This document shows positions 7,350-46,755 of a DNA stretch of 64,000 nt, piece after piece. This DNA is from Flavobacteriales bacterium (GTDB lineage Bacteria > Bacteroidota > Bacteroidia > Flavobacteriales_F > PHOS-HE28), in NCBI GenBank assembly GCA_044346705.1, contig JBIIYP010000001.1, forward strand, positions 148,634 through 212,633. The letters run 5' to 3'. Both the position numbers and the translations under genes were made by a program. The notes beneath the pieces are model-generated. The model was not told the DNA's origin. It searched no databases and saw only the letters and a program-made list of their open reading frames with translations. Every line of letters begins with the position of its first letter. Position 1 is the stretch's first letter.

Positions 7350-7790
7350 TCAGAATACCTCATACAGCTCGATCTCCTGGGATCGTGCTGTTGCGTTGAA
7401 CTCGATCAATGCGGACTTGAACTTGGGTTCGCCGAAGGGCTTGTAATTATTGCCGAAACCCACGGGTTCTTTCGGGATGCCCAGGAAGTTCATGTCCGTT
7501 TCGCCATTGCTGTTCATGTCCTGATGGACCGTGACCGCATATGTGCCATAGGGTACTTGAAAGGAAGCGGTCCGAGCGCGCTGATCGGAGGGAAGTTCCA
7601 GCCTTTTGTAGGGAGTTGTCAGCCAGCCCGTCTCACTGTTGTAAAGGTCCACAACAACGTTCCCACCGGGCTGTTGGATGTTCACGACTTGGATCGTCAA
7701 TGTCCCTTGGCCAAAGGATGAGAGGGGGGAGAAGGACGCCATCACCATCGTGAAGGTGAACAGGATGGAAAAGCGCTGTTGAAGGATCAT
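7350..7790 (-). CDS. Secreted DUF2141-family protein
   Basis: Signal peptide MILQQRFSILFTFTMVMASFS; GTLTIQVVNIQQPGGNVVVDLYNSETGWL...YGTYAVTVHQDMNSNGETDMNFLGIPKEPVGFGNN matches DUF2141 signature as I recall it. Confidence 0.6.
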   Translation of the reverse strand: MILQQRFSILFTFTMVMASFSPLSSFGQGTLTIQVVNIQQPGGNVVVDLYNSETGWLTTPYKRLELPSDQRARTASFQVPYGTYAVTVHQDMNSNGETDMNFLGIPKEPVGFGNNYKPFGEPKFKSALIEFNATARSQEIELYEVF

Positions 7791-8068
7791 CGGTTCAGGG
7801 GATGTATGGAGCTTCGGTCAGTGCTATGCGGCGATCGTTGGTTATTCCAGTGCCCGCGTGCAAGGGCTGCCGGTATCGGTCAGAACGTGGATAGAACGCC
7901 TCGCTGCGTTCAACTGTTCCCGGCCGATCCGTGATGTGCGCTTATCCGGAAGAATGATCGGGACCCTTGTTATCGGGGAAGGACTGACGGTCATCAGTGA
8001 CCCGTTGACCCATCTGCTTTCACTCACTACGAAGGAACACTGGCGAAAAGGTCCGGGCAGGTAAGTCG

Positions 8069-10235: not shown

Positions 10236-11783
10236 TCACCCCTTCCGCTCCAGCAGCCGATCCAATAACACCACCGGTACCAGCCCACAGGCCACGATCA
10301 GCAAGGCGGGCAGCGCGGCCTCGCTCCATTGCTCGATGCGGGCCATCTCGAAGACCTTGGTGCTGAGCGTGTCGGTATCGAAGGGCCGGAGAATGAGGGT
10401 GAGCGGGAGTTCCTTCACCACTTCCATGAGCACCAGCAGCGCGGCGGCGAGCAAGGAAGGCTTCAGCAGCGGCAGGTTAACACGGAGGAAGGTGCGCAGG
10501 GGGCTGGCGCCGAGCAGGCGTGCGGCCTCGTCCAAGCTGGCGGGTTGTTGGTCCAGGCCAGCGCGGAGGGGTTGTGTGGCGAGCGCCAGGAAGCGCACGG
10601 AGAAGGCGTAGATCATGAGCACGATGGTGCCGATCAGCACCACTCCCGTAGCATCCGTGAGCCACCCAGCGAGGCTCATGACCCCGATGGCGATCACCGC
10701 GCCGGGCACCACATAGCCGATCCCGGCCAGTTGCCCGAAGCGGCTGCGGCTCTTGCGCTGGCCGTAGCTGAGCACCAGCGCCAGCAGGAGCGTGAAGAGG
10801 GCGGCGAGCACGCCGATGAGGAGCGTGTTCCCCATGGCCGGCAGAAAGTTCGGTGCGGCCTGCATGGTGCGTTCGCGGAAAGCGTCGAAGGCCAGCGCGA
10901 CCACAGGAATCAGGAAGGCGGCGCCCAGTACCAGTGCGCAGAACAGGGAGGCCATCGCCGCCCTGAGACCGGTCAAGGGTACGGGGCGCAGGCGCTTCCC
11001 CGAAACGCTGCGCCGGGCACCGCGGTCCGAGAGGCGGCCGAGCAGCATGAGCATCAGCACCACCAGCAGCAGGATGCCCCCGATGCGCAAGGCACTGCCG
11101 CTATCGTACAGGCCGCCCCAGCTGCGGAAGATGCCGGCGGTGAGGGTGCGCACACCGTAGTGCCTCACCGCGCCGTAGTCGTTCAGCACTTCCATGGCCA
11201 CAAGCAGTCCACCGCCACCGATCGCCGGGAGCGCCAACGGGAAGGCCACGCGGAAGGCGCGGCGCAGCGCGCCACCCCCGAGCATGCGCGCGGCATCGAG
11301 CTGGTCGCTCATGCCCGCACTGAAGGCCGCCCGCGCAGGCAGGTAAACGTAGGGGAAGAGCACCAGCGCCAGCACGTAGGCCAGTCCCGAAGGGGTGAGC
11401 ATGTCGATGTGCATGCCCGTGCGCTCCGCGAACCAGATGCTGCACGCGCCGGTGGGGCCCCACAGGTCGGCGAAGGTGATGGCGCTGATGTAGGTGGGCA
11501 GGGCCAGGGGAAGCACCAAGGCCCAGCGGAAGAGACCACGTCCGGGAAAGTCGTTCGCGGCCACGAGCCACGCGGTGCCGACACCGAGGACGAGCGCGAG
11601 GAGCACGGTGCGGCTCACCAGCACGGCGGTCTCCCAGAGGTAGGTGGGGAGCAACGTGGTGCCCACGTAGGCCCACTCCGGCGCGGGCGTGTGCAGAGGA
11701 GCGGTGGCCACCACGAGCAGCGGTGCCAGCACCAACAGGGCCAAGGCACCGGTCAACCCGTGTTCACGCCAAGCTCGGGTCAT
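10236..11783 (-). CDS. Iron(III)/thiamine-type ABC transporter permease (FbpB-like, two fused TMDs)
   Basis: 515-aa polytopic membrane protein with duplicated binding-protein-dependent transport signature; downstream of substrate-binding protein gene; its 3' end is the att target. Confidence 0.8.
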   Translation of the reverse strand: MTRAWREHGLTGALALLVLAPLLVVATAPLHTPAPEWAYVGTTLLPTYLWETAVLVSRTVLLALVLGVGTAWLVAANDFPGRGLFRWALVLPLALPTYISAITFADLWGPTGACSIWFAERTGMHIDMLTPSGLAYVLALVLFPYVYLPARAAFSAGMSDQLDAARMLGGGALRRAFRVAFPLALPAIGGGGLLVAMEVLNDYGAVRHYGVRTLTAGIFRSWGGLYDSGSALRIGGILLLVVLMLMLLGRLSDRGARRSVSGKRLRPVPLTGLRAAMASLFCALVLGAAFLIPVVALAFDAFRERTMQAAPNFLPAMGNTLLIGVLAALFTLLLALVLSYGQRKSRSRFGQLAGIGYVVPGAVIAIGVMSLAGWLTDATGVVLIGTIVLMIYAFSVRFLALATQPLRAGLDQQPASLDEAARLLGASPLRTFLRVNLPLLKPSLLAAALLVLMEVVKELPLTLILRPFDTDTLSTKVFEMARIEQWSEAALPALLIVACGLVPVVLLDRLLERKG

Positions 11784-11888
11784 CGGGTGGTGAAGGTGCT
11801 GACAGCGCCGAGGAACATGCGAATGGAGCGGAACGCTCTCGCTCGGGCCAGATCCACATTTTCACATTCGATCATCTCCACATTCGCT

Positions 11889-12938
11889 CTACTTCCATCC
11901 AGCCGCTTCCAGCACCTTCACGGCGGCCGCGTTGTTGCGACCCAACGCTGCAAGGTCGAGCGTGTCGGGGGTGAAGGCCCCGAAGCCTTGGAGCACTTGC
12001 GCTGCGGGGATCCCGGCCTTCACCGGGAACTCCATGTTGCCCTCGGCGAACACGCGCTGGGCCTCATCGCTCACCAGGAACTCGAGCAACTTGATCGCTT
12101 CGGCCTCGTGCTTCGCATGTTTCGCCAAGCCACCGCCACTGATGTTGACGTGCGTGCCACGGCCATCGAGGTCGGGGAACACCACGCCGATGGCGTTCTT
12201 CGCCTTCTGCCGCGCGGGGTCGTCGCTGGTGAGCAACTTGCCGATATAGTAGCTGTTGGCGATGGCCACCTCACCCTGTCCTTCGCCGATGGCGAGGAGC
12301 TGGTCGGTGTCGCTGCCCTTGGGGTCGCGGGCCATGTTGGCCACCACACCGGCGCACCAGGCCTGGGCCTTCTCGGGTCCATCATGCGCCACCATCGCCG
12401 CCACGAGGCTCTGGTTGTACACGTTGTCCGCCGGGCGAACGAGCACCTTGCCCTTGAAACGCGGCTTCGTAAGGTCGGCGTAGGTGCGCAGCTCTTCGGG
12501 CTTCACCTTGCTCTTGTCGTAGGCGAACACGCGTGCCCGCATGGTGAAGCCGAACCAATGGCCTTCCGGATCGCGCAGGTGGCCGGGGATCGCGGCTTCC
12601 AGAATGGCGCTCTTCACGGGCTTCAGGTATCCGCGTTGGCGGGCGAGTCCCAGGCGTCCGGCGTCGGCGGTGATGATGATGTCGGCGGGGCTGTTCTGTC
12701 CTTCGGCCTCCAGGCGGCTCAGCAGCTCATCGTCATCGGCCATGATCACCTTCACTTCGATGCCGGTCTCCTTGGTGAACTGCGCGAAGAGCTGCTTGTC
12801 GGTCTCGTAGTGGCGGTGGGTGTAGACGTTCACCACGCGGGCACTGTCGGCAGTGGGTTGGGTGGTCGTGTCCCCACCGCCCTTGTTGGTGCAGGCAGCG
12901 AGCAGGGACAAGGCGAGAACGGGAAGGAGGTTGCGCAT
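11889..12938 (-). CDS. Fe(3+) ABC transporter substrate-binding lipoprotein (FbpA/AfuA-like)
   Basis: Lipoprotein signal LSLLAAC; extracellular solute-binding protein family 1 fold features; operon with permease. Confidence 0.8.
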   Translation of the reverse strand: MRNLLPVLALSLLAACTNKGGGDTTTQPTADSARVVNVYTHRHYETDKQLFAQFTKETGIEVKVIMADDDELLSRLEAEGQNSPADIIITADAGRLGLARQRGYLKPVKSAILEAAIPGHLRDPEGHWFGFTMRARVFAYDKSKVKPEELRTYADLTKPRFKGKVLVRPADNVYNQSLVAAMVAHDGPEKAQAWCAGVVANMARDPKGSDTDQLLAIGEGQGEVAIANSYYIGKLLTSDDPARQKAKNAIGVVFPDLDGRGTHVNISGGGLAKHAKHEAEAIKLLEFLVSDEAQRVFAEGNMEFPVKAGIPAAQVLQGFGAFTPDTLDLAALGRNNAAAVKVLEAAGWK

Positions 12939-13028
12939 GGGTGGGTTGAACGGCTGCGAAAGTACCAGTGGGCATTCGGTCGGCCCATCGCACGATCATG
13001 GTATTCAGGGTGGGGCGATTCGATCGGC

Positions 13029-13949
13029 CTACGCCTTGGCCAAGTCCAATGCGACCTGCACCGCCACCTCCGGCCGCACCCAATGCCAAAGCTCCTCGCG
13101 CCGCAGCCAGGTCATCTGCCGCTTCGCGTAGTTGCGCGTGTGCTGCTTCATCAAGGCGATCGCTTCATCCAGCGACACTCCCTCTCCTTTGGGGAGGGGC
13201 GGGGAGGGGCGATCGAAGTGCAGGAAGAGCTCCTTGTAGCCCACGGTCTGCAGGGCGTTGAGCTGGCGGTGGGGGAACAGGGCGCGCGCCTCTTCCACAA
13301 GGCCACGCACTACCATCTCGTCCACGCGGGTATCGATGTTTCGGTAAAGCGCATGTCGGGCCACATCCAGCGCGAAGAACAGGGGTTCGAAGCCTGGCCG
13401 GGGTCGCTTGCCGCGGTGGAGTTCGCTCACCTTGCCGCCGGTGAGCAGGCACACCTCGATGGCGCGGATCAGGCGGTGCGGGTTCTGGCGGTCGATGCGG
13501 TGCCACATGGCCTCGTCCAGCCGCTTCAGTTCATCCTGGAGAGCTGCGATGTCCATGCGTTGGAGCCTTTCGCGCAGTGCCTTGTCCGCCGGGGGGAGCG
13601 CATCGAACTCGAAGCACACGGCATCCACGTAGAGCCCGGAGCCGCCGGTGAGCACGGCCACACCATGCGCGTCCAGCAGGCGCTCGATCACGGGCAATGC
13701 GGCGTTGGCGTATTCCTGTGCGCTCACGGCCTGTTCCACCTCCAGGTGACCGATGAAGTGATGGGGCACGCCGAGCATCTCGGCTTCGGTGGGCTGGCCG
13801 GTGCCGATGGGCATGGCGCGGTAGAACTGGCGCGCATCGGCGCTGACGACCTCGGTGCCGAGGGCTTTCGCCACTTCAGCGGCCACGCGGGTCTTGCCGC
13901 TGGCGGTAGGGCCGCAGATCACGATCAGGGTACGCCGTGTGCTCACCAT
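13029..13949 (-). CDS. miaA: tRNA dimethylallyltransferase
   Basis: LIVICGPTASGKT P-loop and MiaA-wide conservation. Confidence 0.9.
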   Translation of the reverse strand: MVSTRRTLIVICGPTASGKTRVAAEVAKALGTEVVSADARQFYRAMPIGTGQPTEAEMLGVPHHFIGHLEVEQAVSAQEYANAALPVIERLLDAHGVAVLTGGSGLYVDAVCFEFDALPPADKALRERLQRMDIAALQDELKRLDEAMWHRIDRQNPHRLIRAIEVCLLTGGKVSELHRGKRPRPGFEPLFFALDVARHALYRNIDTRVDEMVVRGLVEEARALFPHRQLNALQTVGYKELFLHFDRPSPPLPKGEGVSLDEAIALMKQHTRNYAKRQMTWLRREELWHWVRPEVAVQVALDLAKA

Positions 13950-14530
13950 TCGCTCGAAGCATCATGGCCCTCGTCATGGCCATGGCCGCCCTCGTCGTGG
14001 TCGCTCTCCTCTTCCTCGAAGCCCATGTCCTCGTCGGCGTCATAGAGCTCTTCGGTCTCCAGCTTGTAGGTGTCGTCGTCCTCGGCCAGGATCCCGGCGC
14101 CGAGATCCAGGTCACGGCTGTGCTCGTGGGGTGGTTCGCCGTGGCTCAACACCACCTGCGGGTAGCGTTTGCCCTTTACAGGATCGTGCGCCTCGATCAG
14201 TTCCACCATGAACATCCACATGTGCAGGAAGTCATAGGCGTACACGAAGTGCTGGTCGGTGTCGCGGATGTGGTCGCCGATCTGCACCTGCTCCATCATC
14301 AGCGGCACAGCGCCGTCCTGTGCGAAGCCCATGTCGGCCAAGGGGATCTCCACGCCCTTGGTCCATTCGGCGTCGCTCACATAGAAGCAGGCCATCTCCT
14401 CACCGATGAAACCGAAGGCCTTCTTGATCGCCTTGTGGAAGTCGAGGAAGTTCTGCGAGCTGCGGATCTCGATGTCGCGGAACGCCTCGCTGGAGTGGTC
14501 GATCAGGACGCGGAAACGGTAGATGGCCAT
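13943..14530 (-). CDS. pRiA4b ORF-3-like family protein (acidic C-terminus)
   Basis: MAIYRFRVLIDHSSEAFRDIEIRSSQNFLDFHKAIKKAFGF... resembles PRiA4_ORF3 family; start at internal ATG 14530. Confidence 0.5.
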   Translation of the reverse strand: MAIYRFRVLIDHSSEAFRDIEIRSSQNFLDFHKAIKKAFGFIGEEMACFYVSDAEWTKGVEIPLADMGFAQDGAVPLMMEQVQIGDHIRDTDQHFVYAYDFLHMWMFMVELIEAHDPVKGKRYPQVVLSHGEPPHEHSRDLDLGAGILAEDDDTYKLETEELYDADEDMGFEEEESDHDEGGHGHDEGHDASSEW

Positions 14531-14613: not shown

Positions 14614-16260
14614 ATGATCCGCACCATCCTGTTCATTTCGAGCCTTTCCATCATGGTGTGCTCGTTGCAGGGGCAGCCGTTCGCCATCGGCTCCACGAAC
14701 CTCACGTTCACCGATCCTTCACGAGGCGGGCGCTCGATCCCGTGCGAGGTGTACTACCCTGCGACCACGGCCGGGTCCAATGTTCCGGTCGCGGCCGGTG
14801 CCTTCCCGGTGCTGGCCTTCGGGCATGGCTTCGTGATGACGGTGGGCGCTTATGCGAACGTTCGGCAGGCCTACGTACCCGAAGGGTTCATCCTCGTCCT
14901 TCCCACCACCGAGGGCGGTTTCTCACCGAGCCATGGCAACTTCGGACTGGACCTGGCCTTTGCCATTGCGTCGATGCAGGCCGAGGGTGTGGCACCGGCC
15001 TCGCCCTTCTTCGGCCATGTCCTTTCAACATCGGCGGTGATGGGCCATTCCATGGGGGGCGGTGCCTCGTTCCTGGCCGCAGGTGGGGCTCCGCAGATCA
15101 CCACGGTGGTGAACTACGCCGCGGCGGAGACGAATCCTTCGGCCATTGCGGCCGCAGGCAACGCGACCATGCCAACGCTCGTGTTCTCCGGCAGCCAGGA
15201 TTGTGTGGTGCCGGCGGCGGGCAACCAGCAGGACATGTACACCGCTTCCGCCTCCACGTGCAAGGCGTTCGTGAGCATTACAGGTGCCGGCCATTGCCAG
15301 TTCGCGAACAGCAACTTCAACTGTACGTTCGGTGAAACGACCTGTGGAGGTGCCGGTGGTCTTAGCCGGGCTCAGCAGCAGGACGCTGCACAGGACCTCA
15401 CGCTGCTCTGGCTGAAGCGTTACTTGAAGGATGATCTCACCGCAGGCGTCGCCTTCGCTGATTCACTGGTGCTGTCCGCTCGGATCACGTCGCAGTCGAC
15501 CTTCACGGATTGCCCGCCGATCGTGGTGCGCGTGAATGTGAAGGCGTTGCTCGATGGCCCCTACAACGAACAGACCGACCTGATGGGTGATGCCTTGCGT
15601 TCGCAGAACCTGATCCCGGCCTCCGAACCGAATACCGCTGCGGGTTTCGTGCATGTCGGCGGCGTTGTGGGGGAAGCGTTGGATCCGGCCTTGCTCACGG
15701 TCACAGGTTCCGATGCGGTGGTGGACTGGGTCTTCGTGGAAGTGCGTGATGCGGGAACGGGCGTTCAGGTGCTGACCACGGCGAACGGCCTGGTGCAGCG
15801 CGATGGCGACATCGTGGCGGCGAACGGGGCCGTGCTGACCTTCAGTGCGCCGCCGGGCAACTACCGGATCGCAGTGCGCCACCGGAACCATTTGGGCTTG
15901 ATGAGTAATGCGGCTTTCTCCTTGACCCGCGACCCCATCGCCATCGACCTGTCCGATCCGCTCACGATCGCTTACGGCACGGAGGCGCGCCGCTTGCGCG
16001 ATGGCAAAGCCCTGCTCTGGGCCGGTAACGCGCGTTTCGATGCGGAGCTGAAGTACACCGGTGCGCAGAACGACCGCGATCCCATGTTGCAGGTGATCGG
16101 CGGCATCGTGCCCACGCTCACGGTCACCGGTTATTTCACGGAGGATGTGAACCTGGACGGGGTGGTGAAGTACGCCGGCGCGGTGAACGATCGCGATCGC
16201 CTGCTGCATTCCATCGGCGGTGTGGATCCCGTGGTGGTGCGGCAGGAGCAGCTTCCGTAA
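14614..16260 (+). CDS. Secreted alpha/beta hydrolase (esterase/lipase-like, GHSMGG nucleophile elbow) with about 250-aa C-terminal module ending EQLP
   Basis: Signal peptide; GHSMGG motif; C-terminal module shared with ORF 44158-46755. Confidence 0.7.
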   Translation: MIRTILFISSLSIMVCSLQGQPFAIGSTNLTFTDPSRGGRSIPCEVYYPATTAGSNVPVAAGAFPVLAFGHGFVMTVGAYANVRQAYVPEGFILVLPTTEGGFSPSHGNFGLDLAFAIASMQAEGVAPASPFFGHVLSTSAVMGHSMGGGASFLAAGGAPQITTVVNYAAAETNPSAIAAAGNATMPTLVFSGSQDCVVPAAGNQQDMYTASASTCKAFVSITGAGHCQFANSNFNCTFGETTCGGAGGLSRAQQQDAAQDLTLLWLKRYLKDDLTAGVAFADSLVLSARITSQSTFTDCPPIVVRVNVKALLDGPYNEQTDLMGDALRSQNLIPASEPNTAAGFVHVGGVVGEALDPALLTVTGSDAVVDWVFVEVRDAGTGVQVLTTANGLVQRDGDIVAANGAVLTFSAPPGNYRIAVRHRNHLGLMSNAAFSLTRDPIAIDLSDPLTIAYGTEARRLRDGKALLWAGNARFDAELKYTGAQNDRDPMLQVIGGIVPTLTVTGYFTEDVNLDGVVKYAGAVNDRDRLLHSIGGVDPVVVRQEQLP

Positions 16261-28375: not shown

Positions 28376-28615
28376 CGGGGCGCGAAGATCGGGCCTATTG
28401 GTGAACGCCCGTTGCGCGGTTCAGCCATTGGGGTAGTTCGAAGTACCTCATTCCGGCGTCATCGGTGCGCTGCACCGCCCCTTCGGGCGAGCGGCTCTCG
28501 TCCAGCCATGCTTCGTTGCTCCTCAGTTGGATACTTCGTTCCAGTATCCGCTCTTCGTCGCGCCTCGCCTGACAGAACGATAGCCGCCCGTGCCATCCGT
28601 TCGAGGTTCTTCGAA

Positions 28616-36735: not shown

Positions 36736-36866
36736 AGGCCCAAGTGAGCGAACCTCGATGATCGGCCGTTGTGCCGCTCCTGATGCCGCTCTGCCCGGGC
36801 GTGCTGCGTGAACTTGCGCAGCGGCACCTCGTTGCCTGCCTTTTGGGTGGTTCGATCCACTCCACA

Positions 36867-37658
36867 GTGCTCCGTGACCTGTTCGCGATCGCCGCCGTGG
36901 CCATTGCCGTTGCGCTTCACGCGCAGTGCATCAGCACTTTCCCTGCCACCGAGAATTTCACCGGTGGCACCGTGGGAACCCCCGGCACCTTGATCACCGG
37001 CTGGTCGAACCTCTCCGGAGATGACCTGAACTGGTTCGTGGACAACAACGGAACACCGACCGCGAACACCGGGCCCATCGGTGATCACACGAGCAACAAC
37101 ACCTTGGGCAAGTGCATGTATGCGGTGTGCACGGGTGCCACCGCGACACCCACTAACGTCGCCATCCTGAAAAGCAATTGCTACACCGTCCACCCAGACC
37201 AACCCTGACTCACCTTCTGGTACAGCATGCGCGGAACGCAAATGGGCTCGCTGTTCCGCGATGTGAACGTGGGTGGTGTGGTGATCCTTGGTGTGTGGTC
37301 CGTGTGCGTCGACCAGGGCTTGAAGTGGAAACAGGGCTGGCTGGACCTCGCGCCGTACTTCGGACAGGCCGATGTGCGCTTCCGCTTCCGCGCGGTGACC
37401 GGCTCGGGAGAGCACAGTAACATGGCCTTCGATGATGTGGTGGTGAAGAGCATGGTGGCCGTTCTGGGCTGCCCGGACGTGAACGCGAGCAACTACAACA
37501 GCGCGGTGAACATCAATGATGGATGCTGCTCATACGCTTGTTCTGTGGGATTCGAACGGGTCACCCTCAACATCATACGCAACAATATGGTCAGCCGGGT
37601 CTTCGCAGCGATCAACCGCAAGGAGCCATGCCTGGACCTCCACAAATACGCAGCCTGA
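36867..37658 (+). pseudogene. MAM-domain secreted protein interrupted by in-frame TGA (37206-37208) at the conserved Cys position
   Basis: ORFs 36771-37208 and 37227-37658 are in the same frame; ...CYTVHPDQP-TGA-LTFWYSMRGTQMGSL matches the MAM C.L.FWY.M.G core with stop replacing Cys; GTG start 36867 gives good signal peptide. Confidence 0.55.
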
Positions 37659-38176
37659 CTTGCACAGGTCTTAGAATACAGGCAGGCGAATGGCACGTAT
37701 GACCATCGTTCGGCCGGACGAGGCACGGACGAAGAGCGGATACTGGAACGAAGTATCCAAAGGGAGGAGCAACGAAGTATGGCCGAAGTAGAGACTTGTG
37801 CCCGAAGGGTCGGTCCGCCGTGCGGCGCAGCGATGACGCCGGAGTGAGGTACTTTGAGGTACGCGTAAGGCTCACCCGCCAAGGCCTGAGGCCTTGGTAT
37901 CGAAGTGGAGGGTCGTCCCTCTTCGTTCGTACCGATCGAACCTTCGCGAATGGGGTCGAGCACACGCAAGAAGGCTGTCTTTGAAGGAGCCATGCGGCTA
38001 GACATGTCCCGATATCCGGACCGGATGGTTTCGATCCCCGATCAAGCGTAACCACGTGGAAGATCTCACCGAGAACAAGGCGCATCTCGGCGAGCAGATG
38101 CATGAGCCCAGCAGTGCACTAACTCCGTTGTTCCATAACGAAATAGGTTGACAGCAGCACGGGTATCGCACTATCC

Positions 38177-40495
38177 TTGCGGACAATTACACCCAACCTA
38201 GCTGACATGAGAATCACGACCAACCTGTGCAAGAGCTTTATCCTCATGGGGATCATGCTCGTGTTGTTCCCCTCGCAGCGCATGCGCGCTGCATGTTTTA
38301 CCAGCGTGGTCGATCCCTCCTGGCACATGATCAACGGCGCCACGGCCGCTGACCTGCACGCTGCCGCGCCAAGCGGTATGGCCCCGTCCTCCATGATGGT
38401 GGTTTGCTCGGCCGGCCCGGCGTCCACAACGCCGACGTTGTGCGTGAACACGGCACTTACGCCCATCACGCACACCACGTCCGGTGCCACGGGTATCGGC
38501 TCGCCCACGGGACTTCCTGCCGGTGTAACGGCGAGTTGGGTGGCGGACGTGATCACGATCACCGGGACACCCACGGCTGACGGCACTTTCAGCTACAGCA
38601 TCCCCCTTGATGGCGGCTGCGGCTTCGTGAGCGCTGTGGGAACCATCACCGTGGTTGCGACCGGCACGGTGGGTGCGGCTTCTTCGAGCCCCTCCCTGTG
38701 CATCAACACGCCGTTGACGGACATTACGCACAGCACCTCAAGCGTAACTGGTATCGATACTCCTTCAGGATTGCCTCCCGGTGTTACCGCCACGTGGTCG
38801 AACCAAACCATTACGATCAGTGGTACACCCACCACTGCCGGTACATTCAACTACACGATCCCGGTCATCGGTTGCAGTGGTCCAACGGCTACCGGAACCA
38901 TTACGGTGATCATGCTTCCCAATGTCATTTACGCTGTTACCAATGCCAGCTGCGTTGGATTTGGGAATGGCGCCATCGATCTGTCGGTCGATGGGTCCGG
39001 TCCATTCTCCTTCCTGTGGTCGCCCGGTGCCCAAACCACCGAAGATCTGGGCGGCATTGTTGACGGTAGTTATGCGGTTACCGTGACCGGTGCAGGTGGT
39101 TGTTCCACCGATGTTCCGGGTATGGTGGTAGGCAGCTCCGGTACGCTGCTCGGTGCTTTCCAGGATGATGACGGCGATGCGTATGGAGATCCATTGGTGA
39201 ACACTACCTATTGCTCGGCGGCCAGTGAACTGGATTCCACGAATTTGATCGTCGATGGTAGCTTCGAGGATCAGGCCTCCCTGCAGAACCTTCCCGGATA
39301 TGTGCCGGCAAGTGCACCGAATGAAGTATGGGGTGCAGGCTGGAACAACTGGGGCTGGACCTCTTGGCAGGATATTACCGGAAGCGGTGCATGGACCGGT
39401 GGTGCCATCGCCCGTACCGAGGAGTTCGCTGCCGGCTGGAAACGAGCCCATACGGGGAATGTTTTCGGTATCATCAAGGACAATTTCAGCATGAGCCAGA
39501 CGTTCACGGTCGCTAGCGGAGGTGACGGTATCGGGAAATTGAATTGGTATGATGCCAATCGTGCCAGCTGGAGGGAACACGACTGGTTTGGACGCGATAA
39601 CACCTATGACGTTACGCTTACGGACGACCTGGGTAATGTTCAACAACTAGGTACCTACACCAGTAAGGTGGCAGGTGGCACGAATTATAGCACGCCTCCC
39701 GGTGGATACGGCTGGTGGACAACGCAGGGCAAGGATTTCTGGTTCGCCCGCGCCAGCAATGACTTCACCCTCGTGGCCGGCAGAACCTACACCCTGTCGT
39801 TCAACAGTCTGACGACGAACGATGACCGCACCACCTTCCTGGATGACATCATGATCGTCAGGCGCGCACTGAATACGGTGCCTGCCGGCTATGTGACCGA
39901 TTCCTCCGACTGCAATGATGCCAGCGCGGCCGTGAATCCCGGAGCGACAGAGGTGTGCAACGGTGATGACGACGACTGCGACGGCTATATCGATGATGCG
40001 GATCCTTCGGTAACTGGTCAGGATACCTGGTACGCGGATGTGGACGGTGATGGGTTAGGCTTCGGTACCAGCACAGGCCTCGCTTGCACCGCTCCGAACC
40101 CAGGCGATGTGACCAACAGCACGGACAACTGCCCCACCGTTCCCGGTGTGATCGGTTCTAGCTGCGATGACAATGATCCGGCCACCGAGAACGATGTTCT
40201 GAACCCCAACTGCGTCTGCGCCGGTGAGCCGATCGACGTGAACACGGGTTTGACCAGCCTCAGCATTCCCGGCGTTCGTGTGTATCCGAACCCGGCGAAC
40301 GACCAAGTGACCATCGAAGGATCAATTTCCGGCCGTATCGCCGTGATCGATCTGCAAGGCCGCACAGTGATCATCAGCACGACCAATGGTGCTGCGTTGG
40401 TGCGCATCGATGTTTCAGCGATCGCTGCGGGCAGCTACATGCTGCGCGCGTTGGACGGTACCGGCGGCATGCTGGGCCGGTTCACGAAGGAGTGA
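38177..40495 (+). CDS. Large secreted adhesin-like protein: He_PIG Ig-like repeats, SprB repeat, MopE-like Cys-rich metal-binding motif, T9SS CTD
   Basis: Three LP.GVTA.W....ITI.GTPT..GTF.Y.IP repeats; C.G.GNGAIDLSV...WSPG...DL..G.Y.VTVT...GC SprB repeat; DCND....VNPGA.EVCNGDDDDCDG; C-terminal VRVYPNPANDQVTIE... Confidence 0.75.
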   Translation: MRTITPNLADMRITTNLCKSFILMGIMLVLFPSQRMRAACFTSVVDPSWHMINGATAADLHAAAPSGMAPSSMMVVCSAGPASTTPTLCVNTALTPITHTTSGATGIGSPTGLPAGVTASWVADVITITGTPTADGTFSYSIPLDGGCGFVSAVGTITVVATGTVGAASSSPSLCINTPLTDITHSTSSVTGIDTPSGLPPGVTATWSNQTITISGTPTTAGTFNYTIPVIGCSGPTATGTITVIMLPNVIYAVTNASCVGFGNGAIDLSVDGSGPFSFLWSPGAQTTEDLGGIVDGSYAVTVTGAGGCSTDVPGMVVGSSGTLLGAFQDDDGDAYGDPLVNTTYCSAASELDSTNLIVDGSFEDQASLQNLPGYVPASAPNEVWGAGWNNWGWTSWQDITGSGAWTGGAIARTEEFAAGWKRAHTGNVFGIIKDNFSMSQTFTVASGGDGIGKLNWYDANRASWREHDWFGRDNTYDVTLTDDLGNVQQLGTYTSKVAGGTNYSTPPGGYGWWTTQGKDFWFARASNDFTLVAGRTYTLSFNSLTTNDDRTTFLDDIMIVRRALNTVPAGYVTDSSDCNDASAAVNPGATEVCNGDDDDCDGYIDDADPSVTGQDTWYADVDGDGLGFGTSTGLACTAPNPGDVTNSTDNCPTVPGVIGSSCDDNDPATENDVLNPNCVCAGEPIDVNTGLTSLSIPGVRVYPNPANDQVTIEGSISGRIAVIDLQGRTVIISTTNGAALVRIDVSAIAAGSYMLRALDGTGGMLGRFTKE

Positions 40496-44157: not shown

Positions 44158-46755
44158 TTGCTTGTACGTTCCACCTTGTTGGCCGTGATGGTCACTGTCA
44201 GCCTTTCCGATGCATTGGGTCAGTGCACCGTTTCCGGCATCACTACGCCGAACGGAACCAACACCAGCGCGACCAGCTGCCTCTGCGACACGGCCGGGCA
44301 GACCGACTGTGATCTTCGGCCTGATGTAATGATCGCATGGAGCGCTCTCCAGACCTACGCATCCGGCCCCAGTGAGTACCCGCAGGTCTGCAGCGGAGGC
44401 TGCTCAGGGAACGATGGCCGGTTGAGGGTGACCGGGGCAACGCCGAACATCGGCAATGGGCCCTTGAATTTCCGTGGCGTGGACAAGGATGGTAAACGCT
44501 GGTTCATCTGCGGAACGGACACCTTCAGTATCGTGGACCCCAATTCGACACAGACCTTCAGTTGCCCGAACAGCGGCCTGACCAAGCAATTGGTGGTGCA
44601 GCGGGTGTACAGGAAGGTGGGAACCAGCATGCGCTTCACGGAGCGGTTCGCCGGCACCATGACCTATCACCCTTCACACGGCCACAATCACGTGGATGAT
44701 TGGGTGACGTTCAGCCTGCGACTCGCGATCGCCAATGAGCCCAACCCGTTGAATTGGCCCATTGTAGGTACGGGTGCCAAGGTCGGCTTCTGCCTGATGG
44801 ACTATTTCTCATGCACCAGCGCCAGCGGCAATGGACATTGCCGTAATGATCACATCTACAACCAGGGCACCGTGCTCAACCAGCAGTCCCAGTTCCAGAA
44901 TTTCGGCCTGGGTGGACAGGCCTATAACTGCAGCCCGGTCAGCCAGGGCATCAGCGCCGGATGGGAGGATGTGTACAGCGAAAGCCTCGATGGCATGTGG
45001 ATCAACATCCCACCGGGTACCTGCAATGGCAGCTATTATATCGTGGCGCAGGTGGATCCGTTGAACAACTTCCTGGAAAGCAACGAGAACAACAACTGGA
45101 CGGCGATACCGTTCACGCTGACCCAGCAGGCCCCTGCGAACAGTGGTGGAACATGCGGCATCATCTCGGACCGTGAGCCGGTGCTCTGCAGCGGGGAGCA
45201 GGTGGTGCTCACTTGCCAGAACGCAGGTTACACCTACCTGTGGAGCACCGGAGCAACGACGCGCAGCATCACCGTGGATCAGGGTGGGAACTACACCGTG
45301 ACCGTGACCAATCCGTGCGGTACCATGACCTCCGCGCCATACACGGTAACGGTGTTGAGCGCAACGGCCCCGGTGACGACAGGTGCGGTGCTTTCCGCGC
45401 CGGGGACGGCCACGTTGACGGCCACAGGCACGGATCTTCATTGGTTCGCACAGCAGGCCGGGGGAACCGAGATAGGTGTAGGCACCTCGTTCGTGACCCC
45501 AACGCTATACCAGACCACCACCTACTGGTGCGAAGCACGGGCCATGCAACAAGGGGTTTCCGCCTATGTGGGAAAGCCAACGAACACTGGTTCGGGCGGG
45601 TACAGCAGCAATGATGAATACCTCGTTTTCGATGCCTACAAGGACCTGGAGATCAACTCCGTTCGCGTGTACACCACGACGGCCGGCAACCGTACGTTCC
45701 AGGTGCTGGCGGAGGATGGCTCCTTCATTGCCCAGGCCACGGCCTTTGTGAGCACGGGGAATACGCGCGTGACCTTGAACCTGCAGGTGCCTCAAGGGAA
45801 CAACCTGCGGCTGTATGTCACCAATTCCTTGCGCAGCCTGTATCGGAACAGCAGTTCTTCAGGTGTGAACTATCCCTATACCGTTCCCAACATCCTCACG
45901 ATCAGAACGAGCAGCGTGGGTGTGGCGGCTTATCCCTATTGCTACGATTGGGAGATCAGCACACGGGACAAGGTGTGCGCCAGCGCTCGTGTTGCCGCGA
46001 CGGCAACGGTGAACGGCACCCTCGCGCTGGGCCTCTCCGTCTGGCTCGAAGGAGCCTATGTTCAAGGCAGCGGACAGATGCGTGACGACCTGCGCGGTCA
46101 AGGCCTGATGCCTTCACAGGAGCCCTACACGGCGATGGGCTTCACCCAGACCGGCGGTGGGGGGGGCGAGACGATAGCGCCTGCACTGCTCAGCACGACC
46201 GGCGCATTGGCACCTGTGGATTGGGTGCTTGTTGAGCTGCGCAATGCTGTCGATCCCTCGGTCATCGTGGCCACACGCTCTTGCGTGGTTTTGCGGAACG
46301 GCCAGGTGGTATCCCCAGCAGGTGGTGCCGTCCAATTCGTTGGCTCGGTGGGCCCCTACCATGTGGCCATCAGGCACCGCAACCATTTGGGATGCATGAC
46401 CGCTGCAGCGGTCTCCTTGAGCCCCATCGTCACCACCATCGACCTCAGGCAGGCGTCCACGGCCACTTGGGGAACGGACGCCCGCCGCACCTCCGGTTCC
46501 GCGATGGTGCTTTGGACCGGCAACGTGGTGATGAACAATGCGCTCCGGTACACAGGTGCGAGCAACGATCGCGATCCGATCCTTCAGGCCATTGGCGGCT
46601 CGGTTCCGACCGGCATCCTGTCCGGATATGTCACCACCGACGTGAACCTGGACGGACTAACGAAGTACACAGGTGCTTCCAATGACCGTGACCCGATCCT
46701 GTTGAACATCGGAGGGTCGGCTCCCACGAGCATCCGGTTGGAGCAATTGCCTTGA
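44158..46755 (+). CDS. Secreted multidomain protein with lysyl-oxidase-like (LOX) copper amine oxidase domain, Ig-like domains and C-terminal EQLP module
   Basis: YHPSHGHNHVDDW (His-rich Cu site like WHSCHQHYH), KVGFCLMDYFSC (like K.SFCLED.C), ISAGWEDVYSESLDGMWINIPPGTCNGSYYIVAQVDPLNNFLESNENNN (like GCYDTY...CQWIDITDV.PGNY.L.V.VNP...ESD..NN). Confidence 0.65.
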   Translation: MLVRSTLLAVMVTVSLSDALGQCTVSGITTPNGTNTSATSCLCDTAGQTDCDLRPDVMIAWSALQTYASGPSEYPQVCSGGCSGNDGRLRVTGATPNIGNGPLNFRGVDKDGKRWFICGTDTFSIVDPNSTQTFSCPNSGLTKQLVVQRVYRKVGTSMRFTERFAGTMTYHPSHGHNHVDDWVTFSLRLAIANEPNPLNWPIVGTGAKVGFCLMDYFSCTSASGNGHCRNDHIYNQGTVLNQQSQFQNFGLGGQAYNCSPVSQGISAGWEDVYSESLDGMWINIPPGTCNGSYYIVAQVDPLNNFLESNENNNWTAIPFTLTQQAPANSGGTCGIISDREPVLCSGEQVVLTCQNAGYTYLWSTGATTRSITVDQGGNYTVTVTNPCGTMTSAPYTVTVLSATAPVTTGAVLSAPGTATLTATGTDLHWFAQQAGGTEIGVGTSFVTPTLYQTTTYWCEARAMQQGVSAYVGKPTNTGSGGYSSNDEYLVFDAYKDLEINSVRVYTTTAGNRTFQVLAEDGSFIAQATAFVSTGNTRVTLNLQVPQGNNLRLYVTNSLRSLYRNSSSSGVNYPYTVPNILTIRTSSVGVAAYPYCYDWEISTRDKVCASARVAATATVNGTLALGLSVWLEGAYVQGSGQMRDDLRGQGLMPSQEPYTAMGFTQTGGGGGETIAPALLSTTGALAPVDWVLVELRNAVDPSVIVATRSCVVLRNGQVVSPAGGAVQFVGSVGPYHVAIRHRNHLGCMTAAAVSLSPIVTTIDLRQASTATWGTDARRTSGSAMVLWTGNVVMNNALRYTGASNDRDPILQAIGGSVPTGILSGYVTTDVNLDGLTKYTGASNDRDPILLNIGGSAPTSIRLEQLP

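What the first reader, a model, noticed from the sequence alone, without database searches (positions are those of the whole stretch)
37150..37270. In-frame TGA at the conserved Cys position of a MAM domain, followed by a hairpin
The MAM-domain gene is split only by TGA at 37206-37208, exactly where the MAM core expects Cys (C.L.FWY.M.G; here P-TGA-L-T-F-W-Y-S-M-R-G). Twenty-one nt downstream is a perfect 8-bp stem CGCGGAAC-N15-GTTCCGCG (37230-37260). The possibilities are a TGC to TGA nonsense pseudogene, a sequencing error, or UGA-encoded selenocysteine replacing Cys with a SECIS-like hairpin. The spacing is longer than canonical bacterial SECIS, so pseudogene is more likely.
Basis: seen in the sequence. 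Interest (0 to 1): 0.5.

Follow-up and report, generated by a model that had tools for sequence, protein, structure and literature searches.

The report
Nonsense codon in a dead gene stub
The in-frame TGA is a real nonsense mutation in the leftover first fifth of a large secreted enzyme gene that an insertion-sequence-associated deletion had already cut off, so it is an ordinary decaying pseudogene and not a selenocysteine codon.

Summary
The TGA (37206-37208), the MAM domain and the 8-bp hairpin (37230-37260) are all present as described. The selenocysteine reading fails, and so does the sequencing-error reading.

- **Residue at the site.** 68 of the 69 orthologues from other Flavobacteriales species that could be read carry Tyr there and one carries Phe. 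None has Cys or TGA. Cys is the rule only in eukaryotic MAM domains.
- **Hairpin.** The only close relative allele reads TGT and has the identical hairpin, so the hairpin predates the TGA. It is not unusually stable (z = -0.97).
- **Gene already destroyed.** Full-length orthologues are about 1,160-1,190 aa: signal peptide, MAM, lysyl-oxidase domain and a C-terminal module. Here the native sequence stops after about 233 codons, at a CACC microhomology. It then reads into the last 31 codons and 29 bp of an IS110-family transposase gene.
- **Independent lesions.** Both alleles share this truncation. The TGT allele has its own +2-bp frameshift after the signal peptide, and no intact copy was found.
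- **Not an error.** The TGA recurs in 11 independently assembled contigs, and TGA ends 17 of 24 genes checked in the window.

Verdict: a gene remnant with a secondary nonsense mutation. It is ordinary and of low interest.

The parts
36867..37205 (+). 5' part of the gene remnant: probable GTG start, signal peptide (MLRDLFAIAAVAIAVALHA|QC) and the first half of the MAM domain
   Evidence: Orthologue N-termini (MLR...AQC) align with it. The Pfam MAM match covers residues 76-226 of the joined product. L066 aa 20-241 match 36924-37586 at 70% identity.
37206..37208 (+). TGA nonsense codon, derived from TGT (Cys), which itself replaced the family's Tyr (TAY)
   Evidence: Sequence read. The sister allele has TGT. 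Orthologues have TAC 52, TAT 16 and TTC 1. The TGA is present in 11 independent contigs.
37209..37565 (+). Remaining native coding sequence: second half of the MAM domain and the GCPDVNASNYNSAVNINDGCCSYACSVGFERVT linker, up to the deletion junction
37230..37260 (+). Perfect 8-bp hairpin formed by the codons R-G-T ... L-F-R-D; a coincidental structure, not a SECIS
   Evidence: Fold z-score -0.97. The hairpin is identical in TGT-allele contigs. Its arms are absent from orthologues. A stem this good occurs at 1.26% of positions.
37562..37687 (+). Right-end remnant of an IS110-family element: the last 31 codons of the transposase (stop at 37656-37658) plus 29 bp. It joins the native gene at the shared CACC at 37562-37565.
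   Evidence: P0013/P0014 (PF01548 + PF02371) are 87% identical over the last 31 aa. The DNA alignment to L002 ends 29 bp after the stop. The junction was read codon by codon. There is no other match to this transposase in the window.
37688..37865 (+). Copy of a ~170-nt intergenic repeat that starts exactly at the IS end. It is probably the sequence the IS had inserted into.
   Evidence: 78% identical to 28438-28596 on the minus strand. No Rfam match at E <= 1.

Best explanation
This is a pseudogene remnant. The ancestral gene encoded a secreted protein of about 1,160-1,190 aa: signal peptide, MAM domain, lysyl-oxidase-like domain and a C-terminal module.

1. In the common ancestor of the two alleles seen in metagenomes, an IS110-family element lay in or next to the gene.
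2. A deletion then joined codon ~233 of the gene to the last 31 codons of the transposase, at a CACC microhomology. It removed about 920 codons, including the catalytic domain and the C-terminal module. The deletion mechanism is inferred.
3. The stub then decayed independently in each allele. The window's allele acquired TGT to TGA in the middle of the MAM domain. The sister allele acquired a +2-bp frameshift right after the signal peptide.

The TGA simply terminates translation. The downstream hairpin is a chance by-product of the local codons.
For: **Shown**
- MAM match.
- Orthologues of 1193 and 1163 aa, with MAM plus Lysyl_oxidase. The Por_Secre_tail gene immediately upstream is conserved.
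- Only aa 20-241 of the orthologue are found at the locus, and the rest is not found there or elsewhere in the window as one piece.
- The 3' tail is 87% identical to the C-terminus of an IS110 transposase. The DNA homology runs to 29 bp past the stop. The junction lies at the shared CACC.
- The sister allele has TGT, the identical hairpin, and a 2-bp insertion after the signal peptide.
- Linkage is perfect in the 16 contigs examined: 11 have TGA without the insertion, and 5 have TGT with the insertion. All 15 that reach the junction carry the IS fusion.
- The 90%-identity cluster, from a 15-billion-protein collection, holds no full-length or undamaged version.
- Orthologues have Tyr 68 and Phe 1 at the site.
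- The window deviates at 5 of 67 columns that are at least 95% conserved, against a mean of 0.63 per orthologue.
- TGA is the stop codon of 17 of 24 Pfam-supported genes in the window.

**Inferred**
- The order of events, by parsimony: TAY to TGT to TGA.
- The microhomology-mediated deletion.
Against: - dN/dS between the two alleles over the native part is 0.41 (17.5 nonsynonymous and 12.5 synonymous changes). Long neutral decay would give about 1. The counts are small and the differences cluster in two short tracts (36964-37123 and 37285-37325), which suggests imported recombination tracts rather than clock-like drift.
- No expression or read-level data could be checked.
- The IS110 insertion itself is only inferred from a 126-bp end fragment.
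Confidence: 0.95

Rival explanations
1. UGA encodes selenocysteine in place of a structural Cys of the MAM domain, directed by the 37230-37260 hairpin acting as a bacterial SECIS.
For: - The sister allele has Cys (TGT) at the site, so formally there is a Cys/UGA pair.
- A perfect 8-bp hairpin lies downstream, with its apical loop 29 nt from the UGA and a G as the first loop base.
- The TGA allele is reproducible and is the commoner one in assemblies.
Against: - The hairpin is identical in the TGT allele and absent from all orthologues, so it did not co-evolve with the UGA.
- It is no more stable than shuffled sequence, and a comparable stem follows 14 of 898 TGA triplets in the window.
- The family residue is Tyr (68 of 69), not a functional Cys.
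- The gene has lost about 80% of its length, including the catalytic domain, and ends in transposase-derived codons.
- The window holds no tRNA-Sec or any other tRNA. No match to a Sec-machinery protein family (SelA/SelB/SelD) was found among 34 ORFs scanned.
- Bacterial Sec sits almost always in redox active sites, with the SECIS immediately downstream. The Sec trait had not been detected in Bacteroidetes in the survey of Zhang et al. 2006 (PMC1794560).
Confidence: 0.01
2. The TGA is a sequencing or assembly error in an intact TGT/TGC codon.
For: A single-base difference from the sister allele (TGA against TGT).
Against: The same TGA, in the same haplotype background, is present in 11 independently assembled contigs from different ENA, Logan and JGI samples. 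The post-TGA 143-aa ORF is recorded on 25 contigs from five sources.
Confidence: 0.01
3. The truncated MAM-only protein was still functional after the IS-associated deletion, and the TGA is a recent loss-of-function or strain-variable switch rather than late decay of a long-dead stub.
For: - dN/dS of 0.41 is below 1.
- The signal peptide and a complete MAM domain would be retained in an allele lacking both lesions.
Against: - No allele free of both lesions was found.
- The stub lacks the lysyl-oxidase domain and the C-terminal module present in all full-length orthologues.
- Radical changes occur at positions that are nearly invariant in the family: Y to C twice, G to V, D to N.
- The two alleles were inactivated independently.
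Confidence: 0.03

Closest known systems
Bacterial pseudogenes created by IS-associated deletion followed by secondary nonsense or frameshift mutations
   Same: The gene is truncated relative to its orthologues. It is fused to the terminal fragment of an IS110-family element at a 4-bp microhomology. Sister alleles carry independent disabling lesions.
   Different: Nothing unusual. Only a 126-bp end of the IS survives, so the insertion and deletion steps are reconstructed rather than observed.
Bacterial selenoprotein genes (UGA plus bSECIS, e.g. fdhF, selD and thiol-oxidoreductase families)
   Same: An in-frame UGA whose closest allele has a Cys codon, with a hairpin downstream.
   Different: The hairpin is not specific to the UGA allele and is not conserved. 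The site is Tyr in the family. The protein is an extracellular adhesion-type domain with no redox motif. The gene is truncated. No Sec machinery was seen in the window.
MAM domain (PF00629), as in meprin, neuropilin, MDGA1 and RPTPmu
   Same: A clear sequence match (E = 7e-19), including the (C/Y)-L-T-F-W-Y-x-M-x-G core.
   Different: In this Flavobacteriales family the domain is the N-terminal module of a lysyl-oxidase-like secreted protein. It has Tyr where eukaryotic MAM domains have the conserved Cys.

Membership tests
Bacterial selenoprotein gene | The in-frame UGA aligns with Cys (or Sec) in homologues | tested here: not met
   Only the sister allele has Cys (TGT). 68 of 69 species-level orthologues have Tyr and one has Phe, with no Cys or TGA.
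Bacterial selenoprotein gene | A SECIS stem-loop immediately downstream that is specific to, and conserved with, the UGA | tested here: not met
   A hairpin exists, but it is identical in the TGT allele and absent from orthologues. Its z-score is -0.97 and its chance frequency is 1.26% per site. No Rfam match at E <= 1.
Bacterial selenoprotein gene | The genome encodes selA, selB, selD and tRNA-Sec (selC) | not testable with these tools
   Only 64 kb is available. It holds no tRNA and no sel-type domains among 34 ORFs. The rest of the genome could not be read.
Bacterial selenoprotein gene | The reading frame is otherwise intact and encodes a functional, usually redox, protein | tested here: not met
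   About 920 of about 1,160 codons are missing and the tail is IS110-derived. MAM is not a redox domain (established knowledge; PMC1794560).
MAM domain PF00629 | Profile match above Pfam's gathering score | tested here: met
   68.6 bits against a cut-off of 26.4, E = 7.2e-19, profile positions 9-153 of 158.
Pseudogene / gene remnant | Truncated relative to syntenic orthologues | tested here: met
   Orthologues are 1163 and 1193 aa with the same upstream neighbour. The window retains aa 1 to about 241.
Pseudogene / gene remnant | Disabling mutations, independent in sister lineages | tested here: met
   TGA in one allele and a +2-bp frameshift in the other, in perfect linkage across 16 contigs.
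Pseudogene / gene remnant | Relaxed selective constraint (dN/dS near 1) | tested here: inconclusive
   dN/dS is 0.41 from 30 clustered changes. The window deviates at 5 of 67 highly conserved columns, against 0.63 for an average orthologue.
IS110-family insertion sequence (remnant) | Homology to a DEDD/Transposase_20 transposase and to the element end | tested here: met
   The last 31 aa are 87% identical to P0013/P0014 (PF01548 + PF02371), and the 29 bp after the stop are identical to L002. The catalytic part of the transposase is absent, so this is a fragment and not a functional IS.

The most novel reading that the evidence does not exclude
In the TGA allele the UGA is read as selenocysteine by a Flavobacteriales Sec system, using an atypically spaced SECIS. 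The product would be a secreted Sec-containing MAM-only protein, and this would be the first selenoprotein in an extracellular adhesion-type domain.
Probability: 0.01. Interest if true: 0.7.

Novelty: already known. Interest (0 to 1): 0.06.

Why it matters
It matters little biologically: this is one more decaying gene stub in an uncultured, high-GC Flavobacteriales lineage. It is useful as a worked negative in three ways.
- A UGA/Cys pair with a downstream hairpin is not evidence for selenocysteine unless the hairpin tracks the UGA and the gene is intact.
- A 'conserved Cys' taken from the eukaryotic MAM consensus does not carry over to this bacterial family.
- The 143-aa and 141-145-aa ORFs that gene callers report here, in dozens of metagenome assemblies, should be annotated as pseudogene fragments.

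Tried and rejected
- **Rfam** found nothing, on the whole window at gathering scores and on 37150-38200 at E <= 1.
- **tRNA scan** of the window found nothing, so no tRNA-Sec.
- **Pfam scan** of 34 window ORFs found no SelA/SelB/SelD-type domains. This says little about a genome of several Mb.
- **Reassigned TGA (Trp/Gly)** was considered and rejected. TGA ends 17 of 24 Pfam-supported genes, and long ORFs are intact under the standard code.
- **Relocated 3' part.** I tested whether the missing 3' part of the gene had simply moved within the window. Only paralogous C-terminal modules at 15541-16257 and 46039-46752 match, at 50-57% identity.
- **Bridge or seek RNA.** I considered whether 37660-38180 might hold an IS110 bridge/seek RNA. 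The IS homology ends 29 bp after the transposase stop, and what follows is a separate intergenic repeat.
- **Source genome.** The best orthologue identity was 66-67%, so the source genome could not be named or searched for sel genes.
- **Peng et al. 2016** (PMC5029168) gave no usable statement on Flavobacteriales.

Full report
**Observation.** TGA occupies 37206-37208, in frame between ORF 36771..37208 and ORF 37227..37658. The joined product matches Pfam MAM (PF00629) at 68.6 bits, E = 7e-19. CGCGGAAC (37230-37237) pairs perfectly with GTTCCGCG (37253-37260) across a 15-nt loop, starting 21 nt after the TGA. By alignment with orthologues, the likely true start is GTG at 36867, which gives a signal peptide MLRDLFAIAAVAIAVALHA|QC. 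In solved eukaryotic MAM domains the aligned residue is indeed Cys: MDGA1 YYCVSFYYHMYG and neuropilin-1 AHCMTFWYHMSG.

**How special is the hairpin?** The 91-nt stretch around it folds at -30.2 kcal/mol against -27.3 +/- 3.0 for dinucleotide shuffles, a z-score of -0.97, and 36 of 200 shuffles fold at least as well. In the ~62% G+C part of the window, a perfect 8-bp stem with a 3-20-nt loop starts 5-40 nt downstream of 1.26% of all positions, and of 14 of 898 TGA triplets. The hairpin is therefore a roughly 1-in-80 coincidence and is not statistically compelling. No Rfam family matches the region even at E <= 1.

**What homologues have at the site.** A search of the 5.8-billion-cluster protein collection returned 12 MAM relatives.
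- The nearest, P0001 (93% identity), has Cys at the site. The other eleven (50-59% identity) all read P-Y-L-T-F-W-Y-H-M-R-G.
- A scan of one genome per GTDB species returned 70 orthologous loci, all from Flavobacteriales or Bacteroidota MAGs.
- 69 of them could be read at the site: TAC 52, TAT 16, TTC 1. None has Cys or TGA.
- In this family the position is therefore a conserved Tyr. The Cys is a peculiarity of the window's own lineage (TAT to TGT), and the TGA is one further step (TGT to TGA).
- The second hairpin arm comes from the codons L-F-R-D, where orthologues have L-x-V-D. The hairpin is accordingly absent from the orthologues.

**The sister allele.** The contig encoding P0001 (L001, 10.6 kb) is syntenic with the window and about 97% identical. 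It reads TGT at the site and is identical to the window across 37124-37284 apart from that one base, hairpin included. The hairpin therefore predates the TGA. L001 carries its own lesion: a 2-bp insertion (TA) at window position 36934/36935, directly after the signal peptide. This is why its called protein starts at an internal GTG and lacks the signal peptide.

**The gene was already a stub.**
- The last 31 residues of the window's ORF (TLNIIRNNMVSRVFAAINRKEPCLDLHKYAA) are 87% identical to the C-terminus of IS110-family transposases P0013 and P0014, which carry PF01548 and PF02371.
- At the DNA level, homology to such an element (L002) runs from 37562 to 37687, which is 29 bp beyond the stop codon, and then ends.
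- Exactly at 37688, homology begins to another intergenic sequence in the window, 28438-28596 on the minus strand. These two coinciding boundaries mark the right end of the IS.
- Read codon by codon, the native sequence (...CGG GTC ACC, as in orthologues) meets the transposase sequence (...C ACC CTC AAC ATC AT...) at a shared CACC at 37562-37565.
- Full-length orthologues with the same upstream neighbour (a Por_Secre_tail gene) are 1193 aa (L005) and 1163 aa (L066). They consist of signal peptide, MAM (residues 45-194), Lysyl_oxidase PF01186 (483-665) and a ~240-aa C-terminal module.
- The window retains only residues 20-241 of that architecture, at 70% identity. The remainder is not at the locus. 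Only paralogous C-terminal modules of two other genes match elsewhere in the window.
- No other trace of the transposase is in the window.

**Is the TGA real?** The exact 143-aa post-TGA ORF is recorded on 25 contigs from NCBI, JGI, Logan, ENA and MetaClust. A 138-aa version, not checked at the DNA level, is recorded on 65 contigs.
- I read 16 contigs at the DNA level. Eleven, from different ENA, Logan and JGI samples, have TGA and no 5' insertion. Five have TGT together with the +2-bp insertion.
- All 15 contigs that reach the junction carry the IS fusion, and the hairpin region is identical in all 16.
- The TGA is therefore a fixed allele and not a sequencing error. There are two alleles, each broken in its own way on top of a shared truncation.
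- The 90%-identity cluster contains only 244-, 143-, 138- and 131-aa products. It holds no undamaged version.

**Other tests.**
- TGA is the stop codon of 17 of 24 Pfam-supported genes in the window, so the genetic code is standard.
- The window contains no tRNA gene, and no match to a Sec-machinery protein family (SelA/SelB/SelD) was found among 34 ORFs scanned. This covers only 64 kb and cannot settle the question for the whole genome.
- Published surveys state that bacterial Sec lies mostly in redox active sites with the SECIS immediately downstream of the UGA. They also report that the Sec-decoding trait had not been detected in Bacteroidetes at that time (Zhang et al. 2006, PMC1794560).
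- The window deviates from the family at 5 of 67 columns that are at least 95% conserved: Y to C, Y to stop, H to S, G to V and D to N. An average orthologue deviates at 0.63.
- dN/dS between the two alleles is 0.41 (17.5 nonsynonymous and 12.5 synonymous changes), which is below the neutral value. The 31 substitutions are strongly clustered, with 19 in 36964-37123 and 9 in 37285-37325. The ratio is therefore weak evidence either way.

**Conclusion.** The best explanation (confidence about 0.95) is an ordinary pseudogene. An IS110-associated deletion at a 4-bp microhomology removed about 80% of a MAM-lysyl-oxidase gene in the ancestor of both alleles. The stub then picked up a TGT-to-TGA nonsense mutation in the window's allele and a frameshift in the other. 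The truncation, the IS-derived tail, the two lesions and their linkage are shown directly. The order of events and the deletion mechanism are inferred.

The selenocysteine reading (about 0.01) fails three of the four defining tests that could be run, and the fourth, genomic Sec machinery, could not be tested. The sequencing-error reading is refuted. Two of its premises are not: that the gene is 'split only by TGA', and that the site is a 'conserved Cys position'.

Noticed in passing
window 1-4715 (also 6001-8000): A low-G+C island: 32% at 1-2000 and 45% at 2001-4000, against about 62% elsewhere, with 49% at 6001-8000. It carries a tyrosine integrase (3333-4715, minus strand; PF00589 + PF13495), a NADAR-domain ORF (2426-3190, minus strand) and two ORFs with no Pfam match (397-1248 and 1421-2206, minus strand). 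It is probably an integrated mobile element cut off by the window start.
   Followed up: partly
window 37688-37865 (+) and 28438-28596 (-): A ~170-nt intergenic repeat at 78% identity, with strongly conserved blocks such as GACGAAGAGCGGATACTGGAACGAAGTATCC and CGATGACGCCGGARTGAGGTACTT. One copy begins exactly at the IS110 right end. There is no Rfam match at E <= 1, and the repeat is absent from orthologous loci of other species. It could be the IS target sequence, a small mobile repeat or an undescribed RNA.
   Followed up: partly
window 15541-16257 (+), 46039-46752 (+); L066 residues 921-1163: A ~240-aa C-terminal module with no Pfam family. It is shared at 50-57% identity by a hydrolase-like protein (14614-16260), a lysyl-oxidase/Ig_7 protein (44158-46755) and the full-length MAM-lysyl-oxidase orthologues. 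It may be an uncharacterised sorting or anchoring domain of secreted Flavobacteriales proteins.
   Followed up: no
window 36964-37123 and 37285-37325: Differences between the TGA and TGT alleles are concentrated in two short tracts (19 and 9 substitutions), while the flanks are 98-100% identical. This suggests recombination tracts from a more divergent allele.
   Followed up: no
L005 and L066 (full-length orthologues), residues ~483-665: A widespread Flavobacteriales family, found in 70 GTDB species, joins an N-terminal MAM domain to a lysyl-oxidase-like domain (PF01186, E = 7e-24). This pairs two domains best known from animals.
   Followed up: partly
window 10329-14045 (+): A 1238-aa ORF with no Pfam match and an odd codon-position G+C pattern (GC1 0.83, GC3 0.69). 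It is either a low-complexity protein or not a real gene.
   Followed up: no
window 37612-38103 (-): A 163-aa ORF that gene callers report in several assemblies. It overlaps the IS remnant and the intergenic repeat and has no Pfam match, so it is most likely spurious.
   Followed up: partly
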